A stretch of 64,000 nt of DNA from the IMG/VR virus record IMGVR_UViG_3300035492_000225; one strand, 5' to 3'. Shown piece after piece: positions 7,438 to 60,756 of the stretch. The translations under genes and the position numbers were made by a program. The notes beneath the pieces are model-generated. The model worked only from the letters and a program-made list of their open reading frames with translations. It searched no databases and had not been told where the DNA came from. The DNA comes from a virus. Positions within the stretch are counted from its first letter, which is position 1. Each line of letters begins with the position of its first letter.

Positions 7438-7548
7438 TAGCACAGGCGCCGTGGGTACATACGACGTCTCTCGACATTGCTAATTACCCTGAGAGGAAAG
7501 AGTGGACTGGATCACCCCCTTACGAGTAGACTGAGTCTACCTGTGCTA
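7438..7548 (-). ncRNA. Candidate structured ncRNA/leader
   Basis: Closing stem tagcacagg/cctgtgcta; internal gggta/taccc, ctctc/gagag and gtagac/gtctac pairings; strand assumed from neighbours. Confidence 0.5.
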
Positions 7549-8071: not shown

Positions 8072-8851
8072 TCACCGACGCTTGAGTAGTGCTATCATCC
8101 AAGCAGCTGTATCGAATTCCCACCACTTTTCCTTGATCGACTGACGACCTGGGTATCTGTGGTGGTTGTTGTGCCAACCTGCGCAACCAAAGCTGAACAG
8201 ATGCATCCAGATGGAATTCTGCGATTTATCCATCGTAACGAAATTTCGATAGGTAAAGGGCAACTTGACATGAAGACCGATGTTCTGGATAGTGGACATA
8301 ATAGGTGCCAGAGCCCACGGGAGAATAACGGCGAAGAAAGCGCCATTGACTCCAAATGGAATCGCCCACATCAGGAACCAGGCAACCATCCAAAGCACGT
8401 AGTACTTGTGCAGTGACCGATGCAGTGGATCTGCTAACAGACCTCTGGAACTGTGCAATGTACCGATGTTGGGATAACGCCACAGGAGCATATCGAGTAC
8501 AGAACTGTGATGTGGACTATGTGGGTCTAGAGGACTGTCGACATGGACGTGATGTGCCTTATGGAGAGCCGCCCAGCCGGCCGTTGAGCCTGTTCCCGGT
8601 ACGACGCTAGCCAGAATAGCCAACGTGTATTCTACGGGCTTATAGAGCTCGTACGTACGATGTGCGCACCAGCGATGAAGGTAGGCTTCGATCAGTACCA
8701 CATTGAAGACGACTACGATCGCCAACGTGACCCAAAGCCACTGCCAATCGAGGTCAGTGGTGAAAGGCAGTACGATAAGTGCAATAAGGCCGACCAGCAT
8801 CTGCCCGACCATGAACTCACCTCGAGAGCGGGTGATCTCCCAGAATGTCAT
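8072..8851 (-). CDS. Membrane fatty-acid desaturase (delta-9/DesC-OLE1-like), copy 2
   Basis: Three His boxes HRWCAH, HKAHH, HNNHH plus hydrophobic TM segments; start at 8851 behind AAGGAG. Confidence 0.9.
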   Translation of the reverse strand: MTFWEITRSRGEFMVGQMLVGLIALIVLPFTTDLDWQWLWVTLAIVVVFNVVLIEAYLHRWCAHRTYELYKPVEYTLAILASVVPGTGSTAGWAALHKAHHVHVDSPLDPHSPHHSSVLDMLLWRYPNIGTLHSSRGLLADPLHRSLHKYYVLWMVAWFLMWAIPFGVNGAFFAVILPWALAPIMSTIQNIGLHVKLPFTYRNFVTMDKSQNSIWMHLFSFGCAGWHNNHHRYPGRQSIKEKWWEFDTAAWMIALLKRR

Positions 8852-8856
8852 ATCAA

Positions 8857-9609
8857 CTACTCCTTGATTTTGATTAGACGAATAAACCAAGCAACGGGAT
8901 CGAGTTCCCACTTGGAATTACTTAGATTCCAACGACCAGGGTATTTGTGATGGGTGTTGTGTAGTCCTTCACCACCAAACAGAATTGCCAACAACTTAGA
9001 GTTGGTTGATTTGTCGCCGGTGTCATACGTTTGGTATCCGAACCAATGAATGGCTTTGATGCCGATGAACAACCGTGCCCATTGGACAGCAATAACGGGG
9101 ATCGCCCATACATACACCAGTAGATCAAAGTCAATCAACGCCAGAATAGACATGTACCCAAGTGGATAAAGCAATCCGTACTTCGATGCTCGTTTGGAAT
9201 ACGGATCCTTGGCCAGCTGTCGCAACTGCGCTCGAGTCAACTGACTGCCCTTATAACGGGTGGTGAACGAAAACAGTTGTTTACCATAGTGAAACAGATA
9301 AGGGTCTTTCTCTGTATCCGAGTACTTGTGATGTGCTTGATGGAGAAAGGTATACAGACCCGGATTGTTCATCACCGAACACATGGTCACAGTAAACAAG
9401 ACTTCTTCCCAGAAACGGGTGGTCTTGAACGAGCGATGACAGAAGTACCGATGCAAAGCCGCTGAGAATCCGATGCACCAATAGACCTCAAATGCAACGA
9501 AGCTAGCGATCAGCATCATGGGCTGGAAGTCAGTAATAACGGAATAAAGCGTCAGACTGACTGCAAACCACGTCAGAACTCTTAACGCTCTAGAATTCAT
9601 ATCCCACAT
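8857..9609 (-). CDS. Membrane fatty-acid desaturase (delta-9/DesC-OLE1-like), copy 1
   Basis: His boxes HRYFCH, HQAHH, GEGLHNTHH and terminal WELDP; TGATG coupling to the upstream gene. Confidence 0.92.
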   Translation of the reverse strand: MWDMNSRALRVLTWFAVSLTLYSVITDFQPMMLIASFVAFEVYWCIGFSAALHRYFCHRSFKTTRFWEEVLFTVTMCSVMNNPGLYTFLHQAHHKYSDTEKDPYLFHYGKQLFSFTTRYKGSQLTRAQLRQLAKDPYSKRASKYGLLYPLGYMSILALIDFDLLVYVWAIPVIAVQWARLFIGIKAIHWFGYQTYDTGDKSTNSKLLAILFGGEGLHNTHHKYPGRWNLSNSKWELDPVAWFIRLIKIKE

Positions 9610-10574
9610 CAATATTCTCCTAACTCGCTCAGCAGGTACTCGCAGGTACGTTCTGCAATGAACTCTGGATTTTCGATGGCCTGGTTGAGTTGAATGCGAA
9701 GCACTGCGCGGTCTGGATAGGTGCCCAGTTGAGCACGACCCAACTGACTCATGTCAAGGAACTGTACATGGCCGACGCCAGTGTAATTGGCTTCACCTAC
9801 TGGGAACGAGCTAACAAAGGCATTGCCATTACTCGAACCGGTACCGAATCGCATCATGAGGCGTGAATAATTCTCATGACTGCAGTCGATCTTGTAGAAC
9901 CCATTTTCATCCAGAGAACCACACCCGTAGAGTGAGTAATGACCAAAATGATCTTCGAACCCTGGAATGATTTTGGTCGTCAGGATGTTAGGGTTTCCCA
10001 GTGCTCGACCAAATGCAGTGGCCAGTAATTCCTGAACCCGAATACCATACTTCTTGGCATGGTTTTTAACGATATCGAAATCGATATCAAAAGAAAAATC
10101 GACTGACCGTCCACGAATACCGACAAACGGCTTCACCCGTAGTGTATCTGGGCCTGTTGGTCTGACCTTTGGTGCGGGGTAACCACATTTGTATTCATCG
10201 CGCAGGCTTCCACCCTCAGCCAGCCGCATGATTTCAGTCATCACAAACTTCCATGACCACCCATCGATGAGGTCATGAGAGAACACCAGGTTATAACCAT
10301 CGTCATTTTCGATGATCTTACCGCAGGTAGGTGCCATAATGAAATCTTCTACCTTACCCTTACCCACAGTAACCTTATCAGCATAAATGATCTTGCCCCG
10401 GCGAATAGTTCCTCGCATAAGAGGTATCCGCTGAGAGAGTTCTTGAGCGACTTCGCCCACTTCAGCAAGTGAGGTATGAAACTTGGGAATGACAACGCTA
10501 CCCGATGTCATATCAAGTCCCTTTCCATAGAACGCTTGCTGCATCAATGTTGGTTTTTCTTGTAACGTTGCCAT
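9609..10574 (-). CDS. Stand-alone condensation-domain/CoA-dependent acyltransferase-like protein
   Basis: PTLMQQAFY (C1-like), RIPLMRGTI (C2-like), FSHDLIDGWSW (HHxxxDG-like C3). Confidence 0.7.
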   Translation of the reverse strand: MATLQEKPTLMQQAFYGKGLDMTSGSVVIPKFHTSLAEVGEVAQELSQRIPLMRGTIRRGKIIYADKVTVGKGKVEDFIMAPTCGKIIENDDGYNLVFSHDLIDGWSWKFVMTEIMRLAEGGSLRDEYKCGYPAPKVRPTGPDTLRVKPFVGIRGRSVDFSFDIDFDIVKNHAKKYGIRVQELLATAFGRALGNPNILTTKIIPGFEDHFGHYSLYGCGSLDENGFYKIDCSHENYSRLMMRFGTGSSNGNAFVSSFPVGEANYTGVGHVQFLDMSQLGRAQLGTYPDRAVLRIQLNQAIENPEFIAERTCEYLLSELGEY

Positions 10575-43078: not shown

Positions 43079-44386
43079 GTGGTTGAGATGATCGACAGTT
43101 ATAGTAACGAGCACAAGTTGATGAAAAGCGTACTTGACACAATTGCCAAGTACGGTGGATTCGATAGCGACGATGCCATGATGCGCAGCATCACACGAGA
43201 ACAAGGTAGTGGTGCCATTGAAGCCCGCTTCCATGATCTGCTAGGTGGATACAACCGTGCCCAGCAGGGCATTGCAGTTCCATCCAACACAGACATGCAA
43301 GGTCTCACCTTTTTCACACGCCCAAATCTGAACTTGTCATACGATAACATCATGGCGTATCGACAATTGTCTGTATTGGGTAGTACTGACCCCTATTCAT
43401 ACAACCGGATAATTCGTCGGATGCTCTGGCCGGATAGTCGTATACCGGTACAGAGAGGGTCTGGATTTGACACTGATCTAGCCAACGACAACGCCATATT
43501 CGACAACCGCCAAGCCTTCATGCCCATTCTTTCCAATGCTCTGGTTAATATGTCAGGTTGGCCAGATCTAACGCTGCACGCACAATCCAGTAACGAAGGT
43601 ATCGCCAAAGAACAATGGATGATGAACGACTCCATTGCCGAAGTAAACGGTCGATTCGATCTGGACTGTACCTTTGAGAACATGTTAGGTGACCCTATAT
43701 CATTGACACTGTTTTCTTGGCTTCTTTATATTGGCGGTGTGTATCTGGGTACCAAGATCCAACCTGCTGGTTACAGTATCATGCAAAATGAGATCGATTA
43801 CCAAACCCGTATCTATCGGTTTGTGATGGATTGGTCTGGTCGATATATTCAAAAGTGGGCTAACTGCGGTGCCGCATTCCCAGTCGGGTTGTCAATCGGG
43901 ACATCGTTTAATTATTCTCGTGACACACCTTATAACGAAAATAATAAACAGATCCAGGCGTCATTTGCCTGCACCATTGCCGAGTATAACGATCCGATCA
44001 CCCTCTGGGAGTTTAATAAACTAGTCGTCATGTTCAACCCTGACATGGGTGAAGATGTTCGATATACCAGAATGATCCGAGTTGACCCTGGTGCTGCCAG
44101 TGATAAGACCGCCATGGAATATATCACCAAACTGGGCATCGATCCCAAAGAGTTCGAGAAGATGGCCACTGTTCGGAAGTTCAACTTCAAGGGCTTCCCA
44201 TTCATTGACCTTAAGCATTATAATGAATTGCAGTGGTGGGTTTATCCCGATGACTTTGTCAAGATTGCTCGTGGGAGTATGGCAAAGGCTGTAGACGGTA
44301 ATCAGACTGTTGCCAGAGAATCTATCACCAGTGATGTTTCAGATATTGATGCAGTGGGTTTTGGTAACACTGACATCATCGTTTAA
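43079..44386 (+). CDS. Putative virion structural protein (435 aa)
   Basis: GLTFFTRPNLNLSYDNI pattern; one of a plus-strand pair as recalled for phiKZ gp88/gp87. Confidence 0.65.
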   Translation: MVEMIDSYSNEHKLMKSVLDTIAKYGGFDSDDAMMRSITREQGSGAIEARFHDLLGGYNRAQQGIAVPSNTDMQGLTFFTRPNLNLSYDNIMAYRQLSVLGSTDPYSYNRIIRRMLWPDSRIPVQRGSGFDTDLANDNAIFDNRQAFMPILSNALVNMSGWPDLTLHAQSSNEGIAKEQWMMNDSIAEVNGRFDLDCTFENMLGDPISLTLFSWLLYIGGVYLGTKIQPAGYSIMQNEIDYQTRIYRFVMDWSGRYIQKWANCGAAFPVGLSIGTSFNYSRDTPYNENNKQIQASFACTIAEYNDPITLWEFNKLVVMFNPDMGEDVRYTRMIRVDPGAASDKTAMEYITKLGIDPKEFEKMATVRKFNFKGFPFIDLKHYNELQWWVYPDDFVKIARGSMAKAVDGNQTVARESITSDVSDIDAVGFGNTDIIV

Positions 44387-47316
44387 TGGAGTTCTTTATG
44401 TCCCGTTCTGAATTGGACAGCATGATCAGTGCTGCCACCACCAACCCCATGGCTGTACAACGTGCCGGTATCGAATATCTGGAGCGCGTAAGTAACGGTG
44501 AGGTAGAGATTGTCGACCCCAGTAACGCTTTCGTATATTTGATGGAATTTGCCAGTACCCTGTTTACCAACCAGCGTCGTAAAGACGAGTTGATCAACAT
44601 GAGACAGTATCCTGAACTGGCCAATAGTCGCAAAGACCTCTATCATCACATGAGTGACATCGATTATCTGGATGTCTTCTCAAAACCTGCAGAAGCATCG
44701 TTAATGCTGATCATGGATTTAGAAGAGATTAAATCCAAGGCCATCGATACAGGTATCAATGGAATCCGTAAACTGGTAATTCCTCGCTACACCAAAATCA
44801 AAGCAGGGGATATCAATTTCCTACTCCAGTACCCAATTGAAATCCGGGTACTGAGCTACGGTGGTATTCAGGTCGTTTATGACAATCGACTCATTTCACC
44901 ATTACAATCGCTGGAATCCAATCAAATTAATTGGGTAATCAACAATTACAATAGCGATCGTACCGAGTTTATCAACCTGGATATCCCACTCCAGCAACTG
45001 GATATGAAGACGTATACTGCTCCTATGTCGGCAGCCAAGACGTTTTCAAAGACGTATAGCTACTCTGACCTGTACCATTACTGCCGGGTATACATGAAAA
45101 ACGGTGATGGTACCTGGACCGAAATGAAGACCACGCACAGTGACTTGGTTTATAATCCGAGCACACCCACAGCGGTACTGAGTGTACTCGAGGATAACAA
45201 ACTCAATGTCAGTATCCCTCAGGTGTACTTCTCGACTGGGTTAGCTAACCGGACCATTCGGGTCGATATCTTCACCACCAAAGGTCCATTGGAACTAGCG
45301 ATTAACGAGTATGCAGTCGAGATGTTCTCGGTTGAATTCAACACCATCGACAATGATGATCACGGTGTCTACACAGAACCAACACCTAAGTTAAACACAG
45401 TGGTTGCTTTGGGTAGCAGTAAAGTATCAGGTGGATCTAGTTCTCTTGGTTTCGCTAAGTTGAAGGAAAGGGTGATTTTCAACTCACTAACCAACGTTGA
45501 GTTACCAATAACCAATGTCCAGTTGAAATCTCAACTGGATCGGATTACTGATATGGGTTTCTCCATTGAGACCGACATCGATAACGTAACCAACCGTTTG
45601 ATCGCAGTCAGTCGTGAAATGCCGATCCCCGAGATCCGAGAGATCAGTACCGGTATGGGGTCGAATGTAGTGACATTGAGTCGTTCCGTCAACCACATCC
45701 TGGCCAACGCTGATGTCGTAGATAATGGTCCGCGTATCACTGTTCTTCCGTCCACACTGTACCGTGATGAGGGTGGTTATCTATCCATCATCCCGAGTGA
45801 AGAGCGTGACAGTATCCTCTCCATGCCACCTGATCTACTGACAACCACTGTCAACAACAACCAATACTTCTACACGCCGTTTCATTATGTCTACGATCTG
45901 ACTGACAATGTCTTCAGAGTACGGCCGTACTATTTCGGCGACCCCACCATCACACGGAAATATTTCGTGGGCGATAATGGTGTCCTGGGTGTAGGTATCA
46001 CCACGAACACACATTCCGTGGTTCGTGATGGTGATGAATGGGTCATTCAGGTAATGACAGGTAGTACCGACAATCTGAAAGAGCTGGATGATGAGGCTGT
46101 GATGGCCCAACTGGCCTTTATCCCTCAGGGTGAGATTGGTCGGGTCTATCTAAACGGTTCTTTACTTGGTCGTGATCCGGTTAGTAAGGAGTGGATCTTC
46201 GAGTTCCGGTTTGGTACTACCTGGGATATCGATAAGAACCATCGCTTACATGTAGTCGGTTTCGAGTCAGAAGGTGTCGCTCCACACAGCTACCCTACGT
46301 CTCTGGATACTGTATTTGATATATTCTACGTAGTCAGAGAGAGTGATCTCGATTATGTAGAGACCAGTGATATCGATGCGCTGGTAGGGGATTTCCTTAT
46401 CAATGAATCGGTGATTGGCATGTATCACGAACAACTGACGATTGGTCTGGGATCATCTCTGGAAGGACTCTGGTCACGAGCTCGTTCTACCATTGGTGAG
46501 GAGCACTATCTTCGTCACACAGTGGATGTTCCTAAACTCTGGGAAACTAACGTACCGGAATACGACCCTGTGACAGGGGCTGTAGTGTTGGAATATGACG
46601 AAGAGAATCGACCGAGTATTGTCTATGCTCATATGGCTGGTGATCCTGTAATGGACAATGGCGAACCCGTCTATGTAGCTCGTGCTGGCGATCTGGTGTA
46701 TGTCAATGGTGCACCCGTGGTATCTGAACCACGGAATATCCTGCGGCAAGTAGAGATGGTGTTGTTCGATGGAGCGTATTACTTCGTCACCAATGCCACC
46801 GACGCTACCTACAAGGTCGAGGTACCAGAGCAAGTTGTTACGTGGGTTAATCAGACACTGAAACCTGTCCGTGAAAAGTTGCTTGAAAACACTACGTTGT
46901 GGTTCCATCCCAAGAGTAATGTGGGTATGGTGCCGGTGGTCAGTGATGAGGGTCTTCAGGTCACCATACAAGCTGCTCAAAGGCTTCTGGTGGAGATTTA
47001 CGTACCTACCTCCGTATATCGCGATGACGCGCTTAAATCGGAGATTAGACGTACTGTACGTGAGGTGGTGAGCAACCAACTCAAAACCGTGCGAGTGCAG
47101 CGTAGTACCATTATCAATGCACTACGTGAGAACATCGGTGATGAAGTAGTTGAGGTTGCTGTACGTAATCTGGGTGGGTCGGCAGACTACGATGTCGTGA
47201 CCATGGTAGATGAATCTGCCAGGTTGTGTATCGGTAAGAAACTGACGCAGTTGCCAGATGGAACGTATGGTGTCGAAGATGCAATCGACATCATGTTTAC
47301 TCAACACGGTGAGTGA
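44386..47316 (+). CDS. Putative baseplate/structural protein (976 aa)
   Basis: Large plus-strand ORF coupled by TAATG to the upstream gene; DPSNAF..LME..YP.LA pattern. Confidence 0.65.
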   Translation: MEFFMSRSELDSMISAATTNPMAVQRAGIEYLERVSNGEVEIVDPSNAFVYLMEFASTLFTNQRRKDELINMRQYPELANSRKDLYHHMSDIDYLDVFSKPAEASLMLIMDLEEIKSKAIDTGINGIRKLVIPRYTKIKAGDINFLLQYPIEIRVLSYGGIQVVYDNRLISPLQSLESNQINWVINNYNSDRTEFINLDIPLQQLDMKTYTAPMSAAKTFSKTYSYSDLYHYCRVYMKNGDGTWTEMKTTHSDLVYNPSTPTAVLSVLEDNKLNVSIPQVYFSTGLANRTIRVDIFTTKGPLELAINEYAVEMFSVEFNTIDNDDHGVYTEPTPKLNTVVALGSSKVSGGSSSLGFAKLKERVIFNSLTNVELPITNVQLKSQLDRITDMGFSIETDIDNVTNRLIAVSREMPIPEIREISTGMGSNVVTLSRSVNHILANADVVDNGPRITVLPSTLYRDEGGYLSIIPSEERDSILSMPPDLLTTTVNNNQYFYTPFHYVYDLTDNVFRVRPYYFGDPTITRKYFVGDNGVLGVGITTNTHSVVRDGDEWVIQVMTGSTDNLKELDDEAVMAQLAFIPQGEIGRVYLNGSLLGRDPVSKEWIFEFRFGTTWDIDKNHRLHVVGFESEGVAPHSYPTSLDTVFDIFYVVRESDLDYVETSDIDALVGDFLINESVIGMYHEQLTIGLGSSLEGLWSRARSTIGEEHYLRHTVDVPKLWETNVPEYDPVTGAVVLEYDEENRPSIVYAHMAGDPVMDNGEPVYVARAGDLVYVNGAPVVSEPRNILRQVEMVLFDGAYYFVTNATDATYKVEVPEQVVTWVNQTLKPVREKLLENTTLWFHPKSNVGMVPVVSDEGLQVTIQAAQRLLVEIYVPTSVYRDDALKSEIRRTVREVVSNQLKTVRVQRSTIINALRENIGDEVVEVAVRNLGGSADYDVVTMVDESARLCIGKKLTQLPDGTYGVEDAIDIMFTQHGE

Positions 47317-58692: not shown

Positions 58693-58729
58693 GGATATAT
58701 CCTGTCAGGTTAAATTAGAGTCGGCATAA

Positions 58730-58756
58730 CGCCCTACTGGAGCGACCAGTAGGGCG
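58730..58756. terminator. 11-bp hairpin closing the RNA island
   Basis: cgccctactgg-agcga-ccagtagggcg. Confidence 0.65.
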
Positions 58757-58918
58757 ACAGAGGCTTATTTCGGTTACTGCTTCAACCGTAGTCACGTGCT
58801 GCGGCTAGAACATCGTCCAGATCGTACAACAGTCCATCTGGGGTAGTACACATCGAACACTCTATCGGATGGACCTCGATAAAGGCTAGCTCCACGGATG
58901 TTACTCGGGAGGCGTGTA

Positions 58919-59015: not shown

Positions 59016-59128
59016 ATCGATGACCCAAGTTACGGGTAATGGGCACCACCCCTACTGACGTCATTACAAGGTTTTAATCCCCATAACAACCATGTACACA
59101 TTGGCGTCAGTCAAGGCCAGTCATCGAT
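59016..59128 (-). ncRNA. Candidate structured RNA between the tRNAs
   Basis: 9-bp closing stem atcgatgac/gtcatcgat; internal actgacg/cgtcagt. Confidence 0.5.
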
Positions 59129-59133
59129 ACTAC

Positions 59134-59218
59134 TGGTACCCGAAGCCGGACTCGAACCGGCACGCTTTACAGCAGGGAATTTTAAATACCCAACGTCTAC
59201 CAATTTCGTCATTCGGGT
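59134..59218 (-). tRNA. trnL: tRNA-Leu (UAA), CCA encoded
   Basis: ACCCGAA/TTCGGGT acceptor, A73, loop TT-TAA-AA, GGTTCGAGTCC T-arm. Confidence 0.93.
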
Positions 59219-59283: not shown

Positions 59284-59341
59284 TATACCCGGCGACGATG
59301 GAGGGCGAGCTCCGCATTCTACCTTTGGTTCATCGCCTACT

Positions 59342-59432
59342 GAACAACTGACTGGATGAGTTCGACCCTTCAATTAAGGGCCTGGCAAGTCCATGCTACC
59401 ATGTGGCCTGAAACGGCCTTTGTCAGTTGTTC
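59342..59432 (-). ncRNA. Candidate multibranch ncRNA
   Basis: 11-bp closing stem gaacaactgac/gtcagttgttc; internal ccctt/aaggg and ggcc/ggcc hairpins. Confidence 0.55.
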
Positions 59433-59554
59433 TTTATGCTCATTATTTCGGATGAGCATAATAATGATGTATCACTTCAGTTTATTTCAGTAAACTTCTC
59501 AAGAGCTCACTGCGGCCTTGGTGTCGATATTCGTGATACACTTCTTAAATAGGC

Positions 59555-59639
59555 GGAGAGCAAACCCAGGTCTCCTGATGTACCCGACGGGAGAGTACGG
59601 AGACAGCGAGTTAGATTAGCACCCTCTGGGGAGCTCTCC
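59555..59639 (-). ncRNA. Candidate rod-like ncRNA
   Basis: Nested ggagagc/gctctcc, cccag/ctggg, gtctcc/ggagac and gtac/gtac. Confidence 0.55.
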
Positions 59640-59643
59640 TGTT

Positions 59644-59768
59644 TGGAACAAGCGGGTGGAGTCAAACCACCACACCGGCGTGGGGCGGGTGTAAGAGATC
59701 ACCCCTTAGACGTCATGGTGTCCAAGGCTAAGTCCGAATTTCACGGTGCATGGTTTCTCAACGCCTGT
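59644..59768 (-). ncRNA. tRNA-like RNA (acceptor stem, T-arm, CCA) with non-canonical interior
   Basis: ACAGGCG/CGCTTGT, U discriminator, CCA; GGTGG-TTTGACT-CCACC T-arm; 125 nt with no standard D or anticodon arm. Confidence 0.6.
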
Positions 59769-59782
59769 ATTCAGTGACCTTG

Positions 59783-60304
59783 TTAATCGAGCAGATATTC
59801 GATATCTTCAACAAAGCCAATTGACACAGTGATACGGGGTTTTTCTTCACTCAGTGCAGATACTGAATGGGGTTCCAGTACTCGAATGGCGTAGACACCA
59901 TCGAGTTCCAATTGGTCCATCAGTTGACACTTGTCAGGATCATAGTAGTCGTATGGGATACCACCGACTGCCGTGAACCGTTTCTCAGGTGGCTCAGTAA
60001 CCTTCCACCATTTGGTGAAAGTACCTTCACAATTGGCAATTGGGAAGTTGATCCTGACCTGCTTGGTGTCGTTATCGACGTGAATGGTATCGTGGGTGAA
60101 CTTGTAATACACGATAGCTAAGAACTCGATGGTCAGATCCAGGGGCTTGAACAGATGTTCCAGTTCAGGGATCTCTTTATATACTTCAGACTTACGCAGG
60201 AACGAGAAGGTCCCTTTGATAAGTTCTGGACGATCTTCGATATACTTCTGCAGTTTCGCAGGGATATCACCGACATCGATTTCGAGTTTCTTATAGTAGT
60301 TCAC
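59783..60304 (-). CDS. Putative 2OG-Fe(II) oxygenase/DSBH protein
   Basis: IHVD...RINFPI...PHSV...PRITVSI: HxD...H...R signature. Confidence 0.7.
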   Translation of the reverse strand: MNYYKKLEIDVGDIPAKLQKYIEDRPELIKGTFSFLRKSEVYKEIPELEHLFKPLDLTIEFLAIVYYKFTHDTIHVDNDTKQVRINFPIANCEGTFTKWWKVTEPPEKRFTAVGGIPYDYYDPDKCQLMDQLELDGVYAIRVLEPHSVSALSEEKPRITVSIGFVEDIEYLLD

Positions 60305-60756
60305 GATACATCTCCTTGTTCGCTATCGTATTCTTTCTTCAACTCAGTGACACGTGCTTGCAGGACTGAATTGAGGCCGCGCATATGCGCCAGCTGGAGC
60401 TGCAACAACGACCGCTGCTTGTTCTTTGCACTGTCTGGGTTTTCCAGATAGGTGGTGAGCTTGATAAGTCGATCATCCAACTCGACTTGTTCGGCTATCA
60501 GTCGCTGAAGAAAATCAGGATATTGACCGATATCACCCAGATGCAGGTGAGTGGGTGTAAATGCATCAGCTGGCGACCAACTGATATATCCTTCGTGATC
60601 CGGGTGGTTCTTGTGATCAGACCCAGGGTACTCAACGAGATATCCTGGGATATCGTCTTCATCCTCAGGCATTGTCCAGCCACGATAGATATTATACTCT
60701 AGCCGACTCATGGGAGTGGCTTTGATGATCTTGCGACCAAGATAATACGCATCCAT
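60301..60756 (-). CDS. Two-module phage protein (GYLVEY/GYISWSP domain plus helical crAss001_48-like domain)
   Basis: YLGRKIIKATPM...GYLVEY...GYISWSP..F, then FLQRLIAEQVELDDRL.KL; start at 60756 behind AGAGG. Confidence 0.7.
   Translation of the reverse strand: MDAYYLGRKIIKATPMSRLEYNIYRGWTMPEDEDDIPGYLVEYPGSDHKNHPDHEGYISWSPADAFTPTHLHLGDIGQYPDFLQRLIAEQVELDDRLIKLTTYLENPDSAKNKQRSLLQLQLAHMRGLNSVLQARVTELKKEYDSEQGDVS

What the first reader, a model, noticed from the sequence alone, without database searches (positions are those of the whole stretch)
59644..59768. 125-nt tRNA mimic: acceptor stem, T-arm and encoded CCA, with an SD-like hairpin in place of the anticodon arm
Seen: 7-bp acceptor (one G-U), U73, CCA and a 5-bp T-stem with a 7-nt loop. 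The ~90-nt interior has no D/anticodon geometry but contains uaagggg-uga-ucucuua and acacc/ggugu hairpins. The UAAGGGGUGAUC word resembles the 16S-tail complement at 7507-7522. Established: tmRNA, Y-like RNAs and viral TLSs use this half-tRNA architecture. Inference: a chargeable or unchargeable decoy for synthetases, EF-Tu, RelA or anticodon-nuclease defences, or a ribosome-binding RNA.
Basis: partly seen in the sequence, partly recalled or inferred. Interest (0 to 1): 0.7.

Follow-up and report, generated by a model that had tools for sequence, protein, structure and literature searches.

The report
Phage RNA domain inside tRNA shell
A giant phage keeps, among its tRNA genes, a conserved 125-base RNA whose ends look like a tRNA but whose middle is an uncatalogued folded module that other phages carry without the tRNA ends, so the module is probably the working part and the tRNA look-alike mainly a tag for cutting out and protecting it.

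Summary
Real and conserved. The element lies on the minus strand (59768→59644) in the tRNA island of a phiKZ-like jumbo phage. The acceptor stem, T-arm and CCA are confirmed (0 chance hits in 200 simulated windows); ARAGORN and Rfam miss it. Five more distinct copies occur in related jumbo phages (52-80% identical, with compensatory changes). Its interior holds a ~65-nt three-way-junction domain with a UGNRAUU T-loop of FMN/cobalamin-riboswitch type. Eleven other phage sequences, including cultured Vibrio phage CHOED, carry this domain with no T-arm or acceptor shell, mostly in tRNA arrays. The discriminator base varies (U, C, A), CCA is encoded in 2 of 6 copies, and there is no D-loop or anticodon, so charging or decoding is unlikely. 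Best reading: a stable RNA cut out by tRNA-processing enzymes, where the shell is a handle and the inner domain binds an unknown partner. It resembles T4 RNA C and T5 RNA1/RNA2 in layout but is not homologous. The scan has noted anticodon-less tRNA bodies with inserts on other DNA, but not this family. Expression and function are untested.

The parts
59644..59768 (-). Whole RNA, 125 nt: four-way junction of acceptor stem, cargo arm, variable hairpin P5 and T-arm
   Evidence: Fold; six distinct homologues of 125-165 nt
59762..59768 (-). Acceptor stem, 5' strand (pairs with 59648-59654)
   Evidence: Pair probability 0.94; pairs 2-7 intact in all six copies with changes on one and both sides
59644..59654 (-). 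Acceptor stem 3' strand, discriminator U73 and encoded CCA
   Evidence: Sequence; homologues end C-UCA (four) or A-CCA (one); CUUG in the 3' strand is invariant
59655..59671 (-). T-arm: 5-bp stem, loop UUUGACU
   Evidence: Stem changes on both sides in L028/L050 and L118; loop UUYGAMY in all six
59672..59692 (-). P5, variable hairpin in the anticodon/variable-arm position; no anticodon
   Evidence: ACACC/GGUGU becomes ACAAC/GUUGU in L009; 15 nt in L028, about 62 nt in L118
59695..59759 (-). Cargo domain (three-way junction P1-P2-P3), in the D-arm position; also found standing alone in other phages
   Evidence: Covariance model R2: 17 distinct members at 47-94 bits, chance matches at 28.5 bits or less
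59734..59746 (-). P2: 3-bp stem CCG/CGG capped by a UGNRAUU T-loop
   Evidence: 17 of 17 members (partly selected by the search patterns); matches the FMN/cobalamin T-loop consensus
59728..59733 (-). Junction strand NCUUAG
   Evidence: Invariant in the members, with the same selection caveat
59704..59727 (-). P3: long hairpin stacked on P1; its 3' strand holds most of the SD-like word
   Evidence: Pair probability 0.89; 67 of 68 cells at pairs 1-4 form standard pairs, with C-G, U-A, G-C and A-U exchanges
59697..59708 (-). SD-like word, split between the 3' strands of P3 and P1; probably incidental
59769..59771 (-). Leader AAU just before the acceptor stem, the putative RNase P cut site
   Evidence: AAU in five of six copies, UGU in L118; RNase P preference for U at -1 is from my own knowledge
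59550..59639 (-). Second conserved structured RNA, 4 nt downstream, closed by a 7-bp stem and ending R-CCU-A
   Evidence: z-score -3.3; present near every shelled copy with covarying stems
59134..59218 (-). tRNA-Leu(UAA), same island
   Evidence: ARAGORN, Rfam at 46.6 bits
58919..59006 (-). tRNA-Ser(UGA), same island
   Evidence: ARAGORN

Best explanation
A stable, uncharged phage non-coding RNA built from two modules. (1) It is co-transcribed with the tRNA island (inferred: same strand, 4-nt spacer to the next RNA, no promoter or terminator signal above chance). (2) The 12-bp acceptor-plus-T-arm stack is read by host tRNA-processing enzymes: RNase P cuts at the 5' end, the 3' end is trimmed and CCA is kept or added by the host enzyme (inferred from geometry and from what is known of RNase P; not shown). 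(3) The product is not used in decoding and probably not charged (shown: no anticodon arm, variable discriminator, mostly mismatched 1:72). (4) The working part is the cargo domain, a compact three-way junction in which an FMN/cobalamin-type T-loop docks an adenosine, probably from the neighbouring P3 arm or the junction (domain and T-loop shown by comparison; docking inferred). (5) The folded domain acts in trans by binding a host or phage protein during infection, as a decoy or scaffold (least certain step, about 0.4). The shell is one of several wrappers: other phages close the same domain with a plain stem.
For: Same domain with and without the shell: 6 shelled and 11 unshelled distinct sequences. 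Covariation on the core alignment: 86.3% of cells paired against 73.3 +/- 1.3 shuffled and 34-53% for slid controls; 15 of 22 pairs change on both sides. Element 80% identical to L009 while flanks align at 47-49%. Shell geometry kept while T-stem sequence, P5 length (15 to about 62 nt), discriminator and 3' end vary. Nine of eleven unshelled copies sit next to tRNA genes. T-loop UGNRAUU equals the FMN/cobalamin consensus (YGNRA)NY (10.1101/2022.12.26.521914). Precedent for stable non-tRNA products of phage tRNA clusters: T4 RNA C and D (PMC9697503, PMC3014915) and T5 RNA1/RNA2 (GenBank annotation). A 7-bp acceptor stem as a major RNase P determinant, with CCA addition, is reported for M. smegmatis YrlA (PMC4201824).
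Against: No expression, processing or binding data. No partner gene travels with the domain: Ro60 in 1 of 12 domain-bearing records, Sequestin only in some of the jumbo phages. The acceptor keeps C2-G71, A3-U70, G5-C68 and CUUG in all six copies, which is more than a bare processing tag needs and may mean a protein reads it; the six copies are close kin, however. Four of six copies end in UCA and their complete genomes lack a CCA-adding enzyme, so CCA repair would depend on the host. Invariance of the core is inflated because most members were found with patterns built from it.
Confidence: 0.55

Rival explanations
1. The tRNA shell is the functional part: a decoy for a tRNA-binding factor (synthetase, EF-Tu, RelA, peptidyl-tRNA hydrolase or a tRNA-cutting defence nuclease), with the inner domain only standing in for the D-arm.
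For: Acceptor length and T-loop are kept in six copies; acceptor pairs 2, 3 and 5 are invariant while the T-stem diverges; the mismatched 1:72 pair in five of six recalls initiator tRNA.
Against: The discriminator varies (U, C, A); CCA is encoded in two of six; no D-loop GG is available and position 56 is U in three of six, so the usual elbow contact is not conserved; no anticodon-like loop for anticodon nucleases; the inner domain persists without any shell in eleven sequences.
Confidence: 0.18
2. The inner domain is a small ribozyme or a small-molecule aptamer, for example an RNA sponge for nucleotide signals, and needs no protein partner.
For: Many near-invariant junction bases in about 65 nt, an FMN/cobalamin-type T-loop, portability between contexts, flanking 24-nt direct repeats in phage CHOED, and a Sequestin-family gene within about 1 kb in most shelled loci. 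HDV-like theta ribozymes show that phage tRNA regions hold ribozymes (PMC10879173).
Against: No match to any Rfam ribozyme or riboswitch, even at E up to 5-10; no gene downstream to regulate; self-cleavage inside a tRNA shell would destroy it; Sequestin is missing from the complete genome of L118 and from all unshelled records tested.
Confidence: 0.15
3. A ribosome-binding RNA: the SD-like word opens and pairs with the 16S rRNA 3' tail.
For: Duplex of -17 kcal/mol in the window, L009 and L059, and of -13 to -15 in five unshelled copies, each better than 98% or more of shuffles; GGGU after P3 is near-invariant.
Against: The word is paired in P3 and P1; net binding is -1.6 kcal/mol in the window and 0 to -3.4 in most members; the duplex is no better than shuffles in L028, L050, L044, L052, L054, L064, L065 and L066; covarying changes keep the helix and lose the word; no conserved start codon follows.
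Confidence: 0.07
4. A decayed tRNA gene with an insertion, or a passive leftover.
For: Sits in a tRNA island; absent from the closest cultured relative, DT01; its acceptor 3' strand resembles that of the neighbouring tRNA-Ser.
Against: Interior conserved with covariation at 52-80% overall identity; same domain in unrelated phages; flanks diverge much faster.
Confidence: 0.03

Closest known systems
T4 RNA C (species 1 RNA, 139 nt) and RNA D; T5 RNA1 (144 nt) and RNA2 (125 nt), annotated as tRNA-like stable RNAs of unknown function
   Same: Phage tRNA cluster, 120-145 nt, paired ends plus a T-arm next to the 3' strand, large non-tRNA interior, no known function (PMC9697503; PMC3014915).
   Different: No homology: the core model scores nothing above 7.3 bits in the T4 or T5 tRNA regions with filters off, and finds no match in either genome. 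Here the interior is a defined domain that also occurs on its own.
YrlA bacterial and phage Y RNAs (Rfam RF02553; PMC4201824)
   Same: Two-module RNA: a tRNA-like part joined to a second domain; some are cut by RNase P and given CCA; found in phages.
   Different: YrlA is circularly permuted with a closed acceptor stem and a D-arm, carries a GNCGAAN(0-1)G Ro60 motif and lies next to Ro60. This RNA has an open acceptor end, no D-arm, no such motif in 16 of 17 members, and no Ro60 gene in the complete genomes tested.
tmRNA
   Same: Acceptor stem plus T-arm without an anticodon, with a foreign domain between them.
   Different: One third of the size; no G3-U70 alanine identity pair, no A73 in five of six copies, no conserved tag reading frame; ARAGORN and Rfam find no tmRNA.
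T-loop/receptor module of FMN and cobalamin riboswitches (10.1101/2022.12.26.521914)
   Same: Seven-nucleotide terminal loop of consensus UGNRAUU on a short stem.
   Different: Only the loop is shared. No riboswitch family matches, the UNANA receptor loop is not conserved in P3, and no regulated gene follows.

Membership tests
tRNA (RF00005) | 7-bp acceptor stem, discriminator, CCA | tested here: met
   Met in the window; 1:72 is mismatched in five homologues and CCA is not encoded in four
tRNA (RF00005) | T-arm with 5-bp stem and 7-nt T-loop | tested here: met
   Loop UUUGACU, with U in place of C56; covarying stem
tRNA (RF00005) | D-arm with GG and an anticodon arm with a 7-nt loop and U33 | tested here: not met
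   A 65-nt domain replaces the D-arm; P5 is 15 to about 62 nt long with no conserved loop; ARAGORN and Rfam miss it
tRNA (RF00005) | Aminoacylation | not testable with these tools
   The variable discriminator argues against a conserved identity
tmRNA | G3-U70 and A73 alanine identity, tag reading frame, pseudoknots | tested here: not met
   A3-U70 in all six; no tmRNA call; no conserved reading frame
YrlA / Y RNA | Permuted tRNA-like domain with a closed acceptor stem and a D-arm | tested here: not met
   Open acceptor end, no D-arm
YrlA / Y RNA | GNCGAAN(0-1)G Ro60-binding motif and an adjacent Ro60 gene | tested here: not met
   Motif in 1 of 17 (in the variable arm of L118); TROVE in 1 of 16 records and 0 of 5 complete ones
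T4 RNA C/D and T5 tRNA-like stable RNAs | Sequence or structure homology | tested here: not met
T4 RNA C/D and T5 tRNA-like stable RNAs | Non-tRNA with acceptor-like stem and T-arm in a phage tRNA cluster | tested here: met
T4 RNA C/D and T5 tRNA-like stable RNAs | Accumulates as a stable processed RNA during infection | not testable with these tools
   No expression data
Known self-cleaving ribozymes and riboswitches in Rfam 15 | Match to a family covariance model | tested here: not met
   No hit over the element at gathering score or at E up to 5-10, in the window or in nine homologous loci

The most novel reading that the evidence does not exclude
The inner domain is a new class of portable functional RNA, a ribozyme or an aptamer-like sponge for a host immune signal or defence protein, that phages slot into tRNA-shaped carriers so that host enzymes mass-produce and stabilise it, the natural counterpart of engineered tRNA scaffolds.
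Probability: 0.15. Interest if true: 0.85.

Novelty: new variant of a known kind. Interest (0 to 1): 0.52.

Why it matters
The tRNA-like stable RNAs of T4 and T5 have been known for decades and still have no assigned function. Here the same kind of RNA can be taken apart by comparison: one defined 65-nt domain occurs both inside a tRNA shell and without it. That allows a direct test of whether the tRNA mimicry is the function or only the packaging, and a cultured phage (Vibrio phage CHOED) carries the bare domain. The domain is also an uncatalogued, covariation-supported RNA motif with a riboswitch-type T-loop, found so far only in phages.

Tried and rejected
BLASTN of the element, of two shelled homologues and of one unshelled homologue against 50,697 phage records found nothing beyond 19-20-nt chance words; one unshelled query gave a 23-nt hit that proved real, in CHOED. 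An exact core pattern in 185,579 prokaryote genomes gave six hits, all without the flanking helices; 151 genomes of one class gave one 28.5-bit hit that lacks the motif. So it was not found in the cellular genomes searched, which does not prove absence. Relaxed patterns in IMG/VR added one member among about 50 new loci, so the family looks small in that collection. A class II tRNA-Ser reading with a UGA anticodon was rejected because that stem is not kept in homologues. A likeness of the 5' end to T4 RNA D was rejected. A second T-loop in P3 (elbow-binding double T-loop) was rejected because the loop is not conserved in shelled copies. A TPP-riboswitch-like layout was considered; no Rfam support. 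Ro60, CCA enzyme and Sequestin do not track with the domain. The promoter and terminator scan was at chance level. A homologue search through the flanking 227-aa protein failed. No whole genome is held for this window. Nine literature searches found no description of the motif, but most subscription papers are not covered.

Full report
Setting. The window comes from a phiKZ-like jumbo phage. Its ligase and baseplate-hub proteins are closest to Pseudomonas phage pPa_SNUABM_DT01 (55% and 58% identity). The element lies on the minus strand in a ~1.1-kb stretch without credible genes, upstream of tRNA-Leu(UAA) and tRNA-Ser(UGA). An identical copy is in a Logan contig (L025). The host is not known.

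Observation. The 7-bp acceptor with one G-U, U73, CCA, the 5-bp T-stem with a 7-nt loop and the acacc/ggugu hairpin are all there. A strict scan finds this geometry only here and in tRNA-Leu, and never in 200 simulated windows. ARAGORN and Rfam miss the element. The SD-like hairpin does not form: pair probability 0.000, and a fold 14 kcal/mol worse than the comparative one.

Homologues with the shell. A T-arm pattern found L009, in a 259-kb phage. Synteny plus a sequence-only model found the distant L028. Core patterns added L059, L050 and L118. These six distinct RNAs are 125-165 nt long and 52-80% identical to the window copy where measured, while the flanks align at 47-49%. All keep acceptor pairs 2-7, a T-stem that changes on both sides, and a UUYGAMY loop. 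What varies is informative. Pair 1:72 is A-U once, U-U four times and A-G once. The discriminator is U, C or A. CCA is encoded in two copies and the others end UCA. The hairpin before the T-arm runs from 15 to about 62 nt with no shared loop. This excludes decoding and argues against a conserved charging identity.

The inner domain. Between the acceptor 5' strand and that hairpin lies a ~65-nt arm. A short helix (ACC/GGU) closes a three-way junction made of a strand RUGY, a 3-bp hairpin CCG/CGG with loop UGNRAUU, a strand NCUUAG, and a long variable hairpin P3 that stacks on the closing helix. On a 15-sequence alignment 86.3% of cells pair, against 73.3 +/- 1.3 in shuffles and 34-53% in slid controls, and 15 of 22 pairs change on both sides. 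The structure was drawn from these sequences, so the controls lean in its favour; RNAalifold recovered P2 and most of P3 but not P1 on the same alignment. At the base of P3, 67 of 68 cells in pairs 1-4 are standard pairs of several types. The loop equals the consensus of FMN and cobalamin riboswitch T-loops, which take in an adenosine from a receptor (10.1101/2022.12.26.521914). Caveat: most members were found with patterns drawn from this core, which inflates its invariance. L009 and L028 were found without such patterns and still share it.

The domain without the shell. Eleven further distinct sequences carry the domain closed only by its own stem, with no T-arm. Nine lie beside tRNA genes in phage arrays. 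One is in the cultured Vibrio phage CHOED, in a 1.5-kb non-coding gap between 24-nt direct repeats. Members score 47-94 bits with the model; chance matches reach at most 28.5. Members used to build the model match it by construction; L118 (49.7 bits) did not. The domain was not found in DT01, pVa-21, T4 or T5, nor in the cellular genomes searched. The domain is therefore independent of the shell.

The SD-like word. But it spans the 3' strands of P3 and P1, so net binding is about -1.6 kcal/mol. In eight members the duplex is no better than shuffles, and no conserved start codon follows. The word at 7507-7522 belongs to another RNA (7438-7548), conserved in the four related genomes searched, including DT01, with an invariant stretch complementary to the 16S 3' end. 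That RNA is the better candidate for ribosome binding.

Mechanism. Shown: a conserved two-module RNA gene, no anticodon, variable identity elements, and a portable inner domain. Inferred: co-transcription with the tRNA island; release by RNase P and 3' trimming, with CCA kept or repaired by the host, since the complete genomes with shelled copies lack their own CCA enzyme; folding of the domain through T-loop docking. Guessed: binding to a host or phage protein as a decoy or scaffold. No partner gene tracks with the domain. Ro60 occurs in 1 of 16 records tested. A Sequestin-family gene lies near most shelled copies but is missing from L118's complete genome and from the unshelled records, and is present in DT01, which lacks the RNA. 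The invariant acceptor bases C2-G71, A3-U70 and G5-C68 leave room for a protein that reads the shell.

Comparison with known RNAs. In layout it is like T4 RNA C and T5 RNA1/RNA2, stable tRNA-like RNAs from phage tRNA clusters whose roles are unknown, but it is not homologous to them. It fails the membership tests for tRNA, tmRNA and YrlA and matches no Rfam family. Earlier notes of this scan describe anticodon-less tRNA bodies with variable inserts in other phages (unchecked), but none shares sequence with this family.

Verdict. A real, conserved, apparently undescribed phage RNA family: a new variant of a known but unexplained kind. Interest is moderate because the family is small and its function is untested.

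Noticed in passing
window 7438-7548 (- strand): Separate structured RNA followed by a long hairpin, conserved in the four related genomes searched including cultured DT01 (L096, L098, L099, L100). It has an invariant stretch giving about 16 nt of complementarity to the 16S rRNA 3' end and no conserved start codon; z-score -3.6; no Rfam family. Strong candidate for a ribosome-binding decoy.
   Followed up: partly
window 59550-59639 (- strand): Second conserved RNA 4 nt downstream of the finding, present near all six shelled copies, with covarying stems and an R-CCU-A end; not in Rfam.
   Followed up: partly
window 58718-58893 (- strand): Non-coding element downstream of tRNA-Ser, 81-85% identical in L027, L039, L059 and L118 and partly matched in DT01.
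   Followed up: partly
window 59016-59130 (- strand): Non-coding element between tRNA-Leu and tRNA-Ser, 73-78% identical in L027, L039 and L059.
   Followed up: partly
window 59300-59440 (- strand): Multibranch fold (z-score -3.1) with no BLASTN homologue in the related loci.
   Followed up: partly
window 60301-60756 (- strand): 151-aa protein with PF21825 (labelled Sequestin in one Pfam copy, crAss001_48 in another), a likely counter-defence sponge protein next to the RNA island.
   Followed up: partly
window 8072-9612 (- strand): Two tandem membrane proteins with histidine-box motifs that look like fatty-acid desaturases, among tail-region genes; judged by eye only.
   Followed up: no
L052:4100-5570 (Vibrio phage CHOED, KJ192399.2, about 44220-45710): Unannotated 1.5-kb non-coding gap in a cultured phage with several hairpin-rich and T-arm-like elements; the domain sits between two 24-nt direct repeats.
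   Followed up: partly
L062:1923-3323 (- strand): Ro60-like TROVE protein inside a phage tRNA array, about 3.2 kb from an unshelled copy of the domain.
   Followed up: partly
L023:5940-7270 (DT01, MW735835.1 about 170940-172270): The tRNA island of cultured DT01 holds several unannotated structured RNAs, some visibly shared with L009, and DT01 encodes its own CCA-adding enzyme.
   Followed up: no
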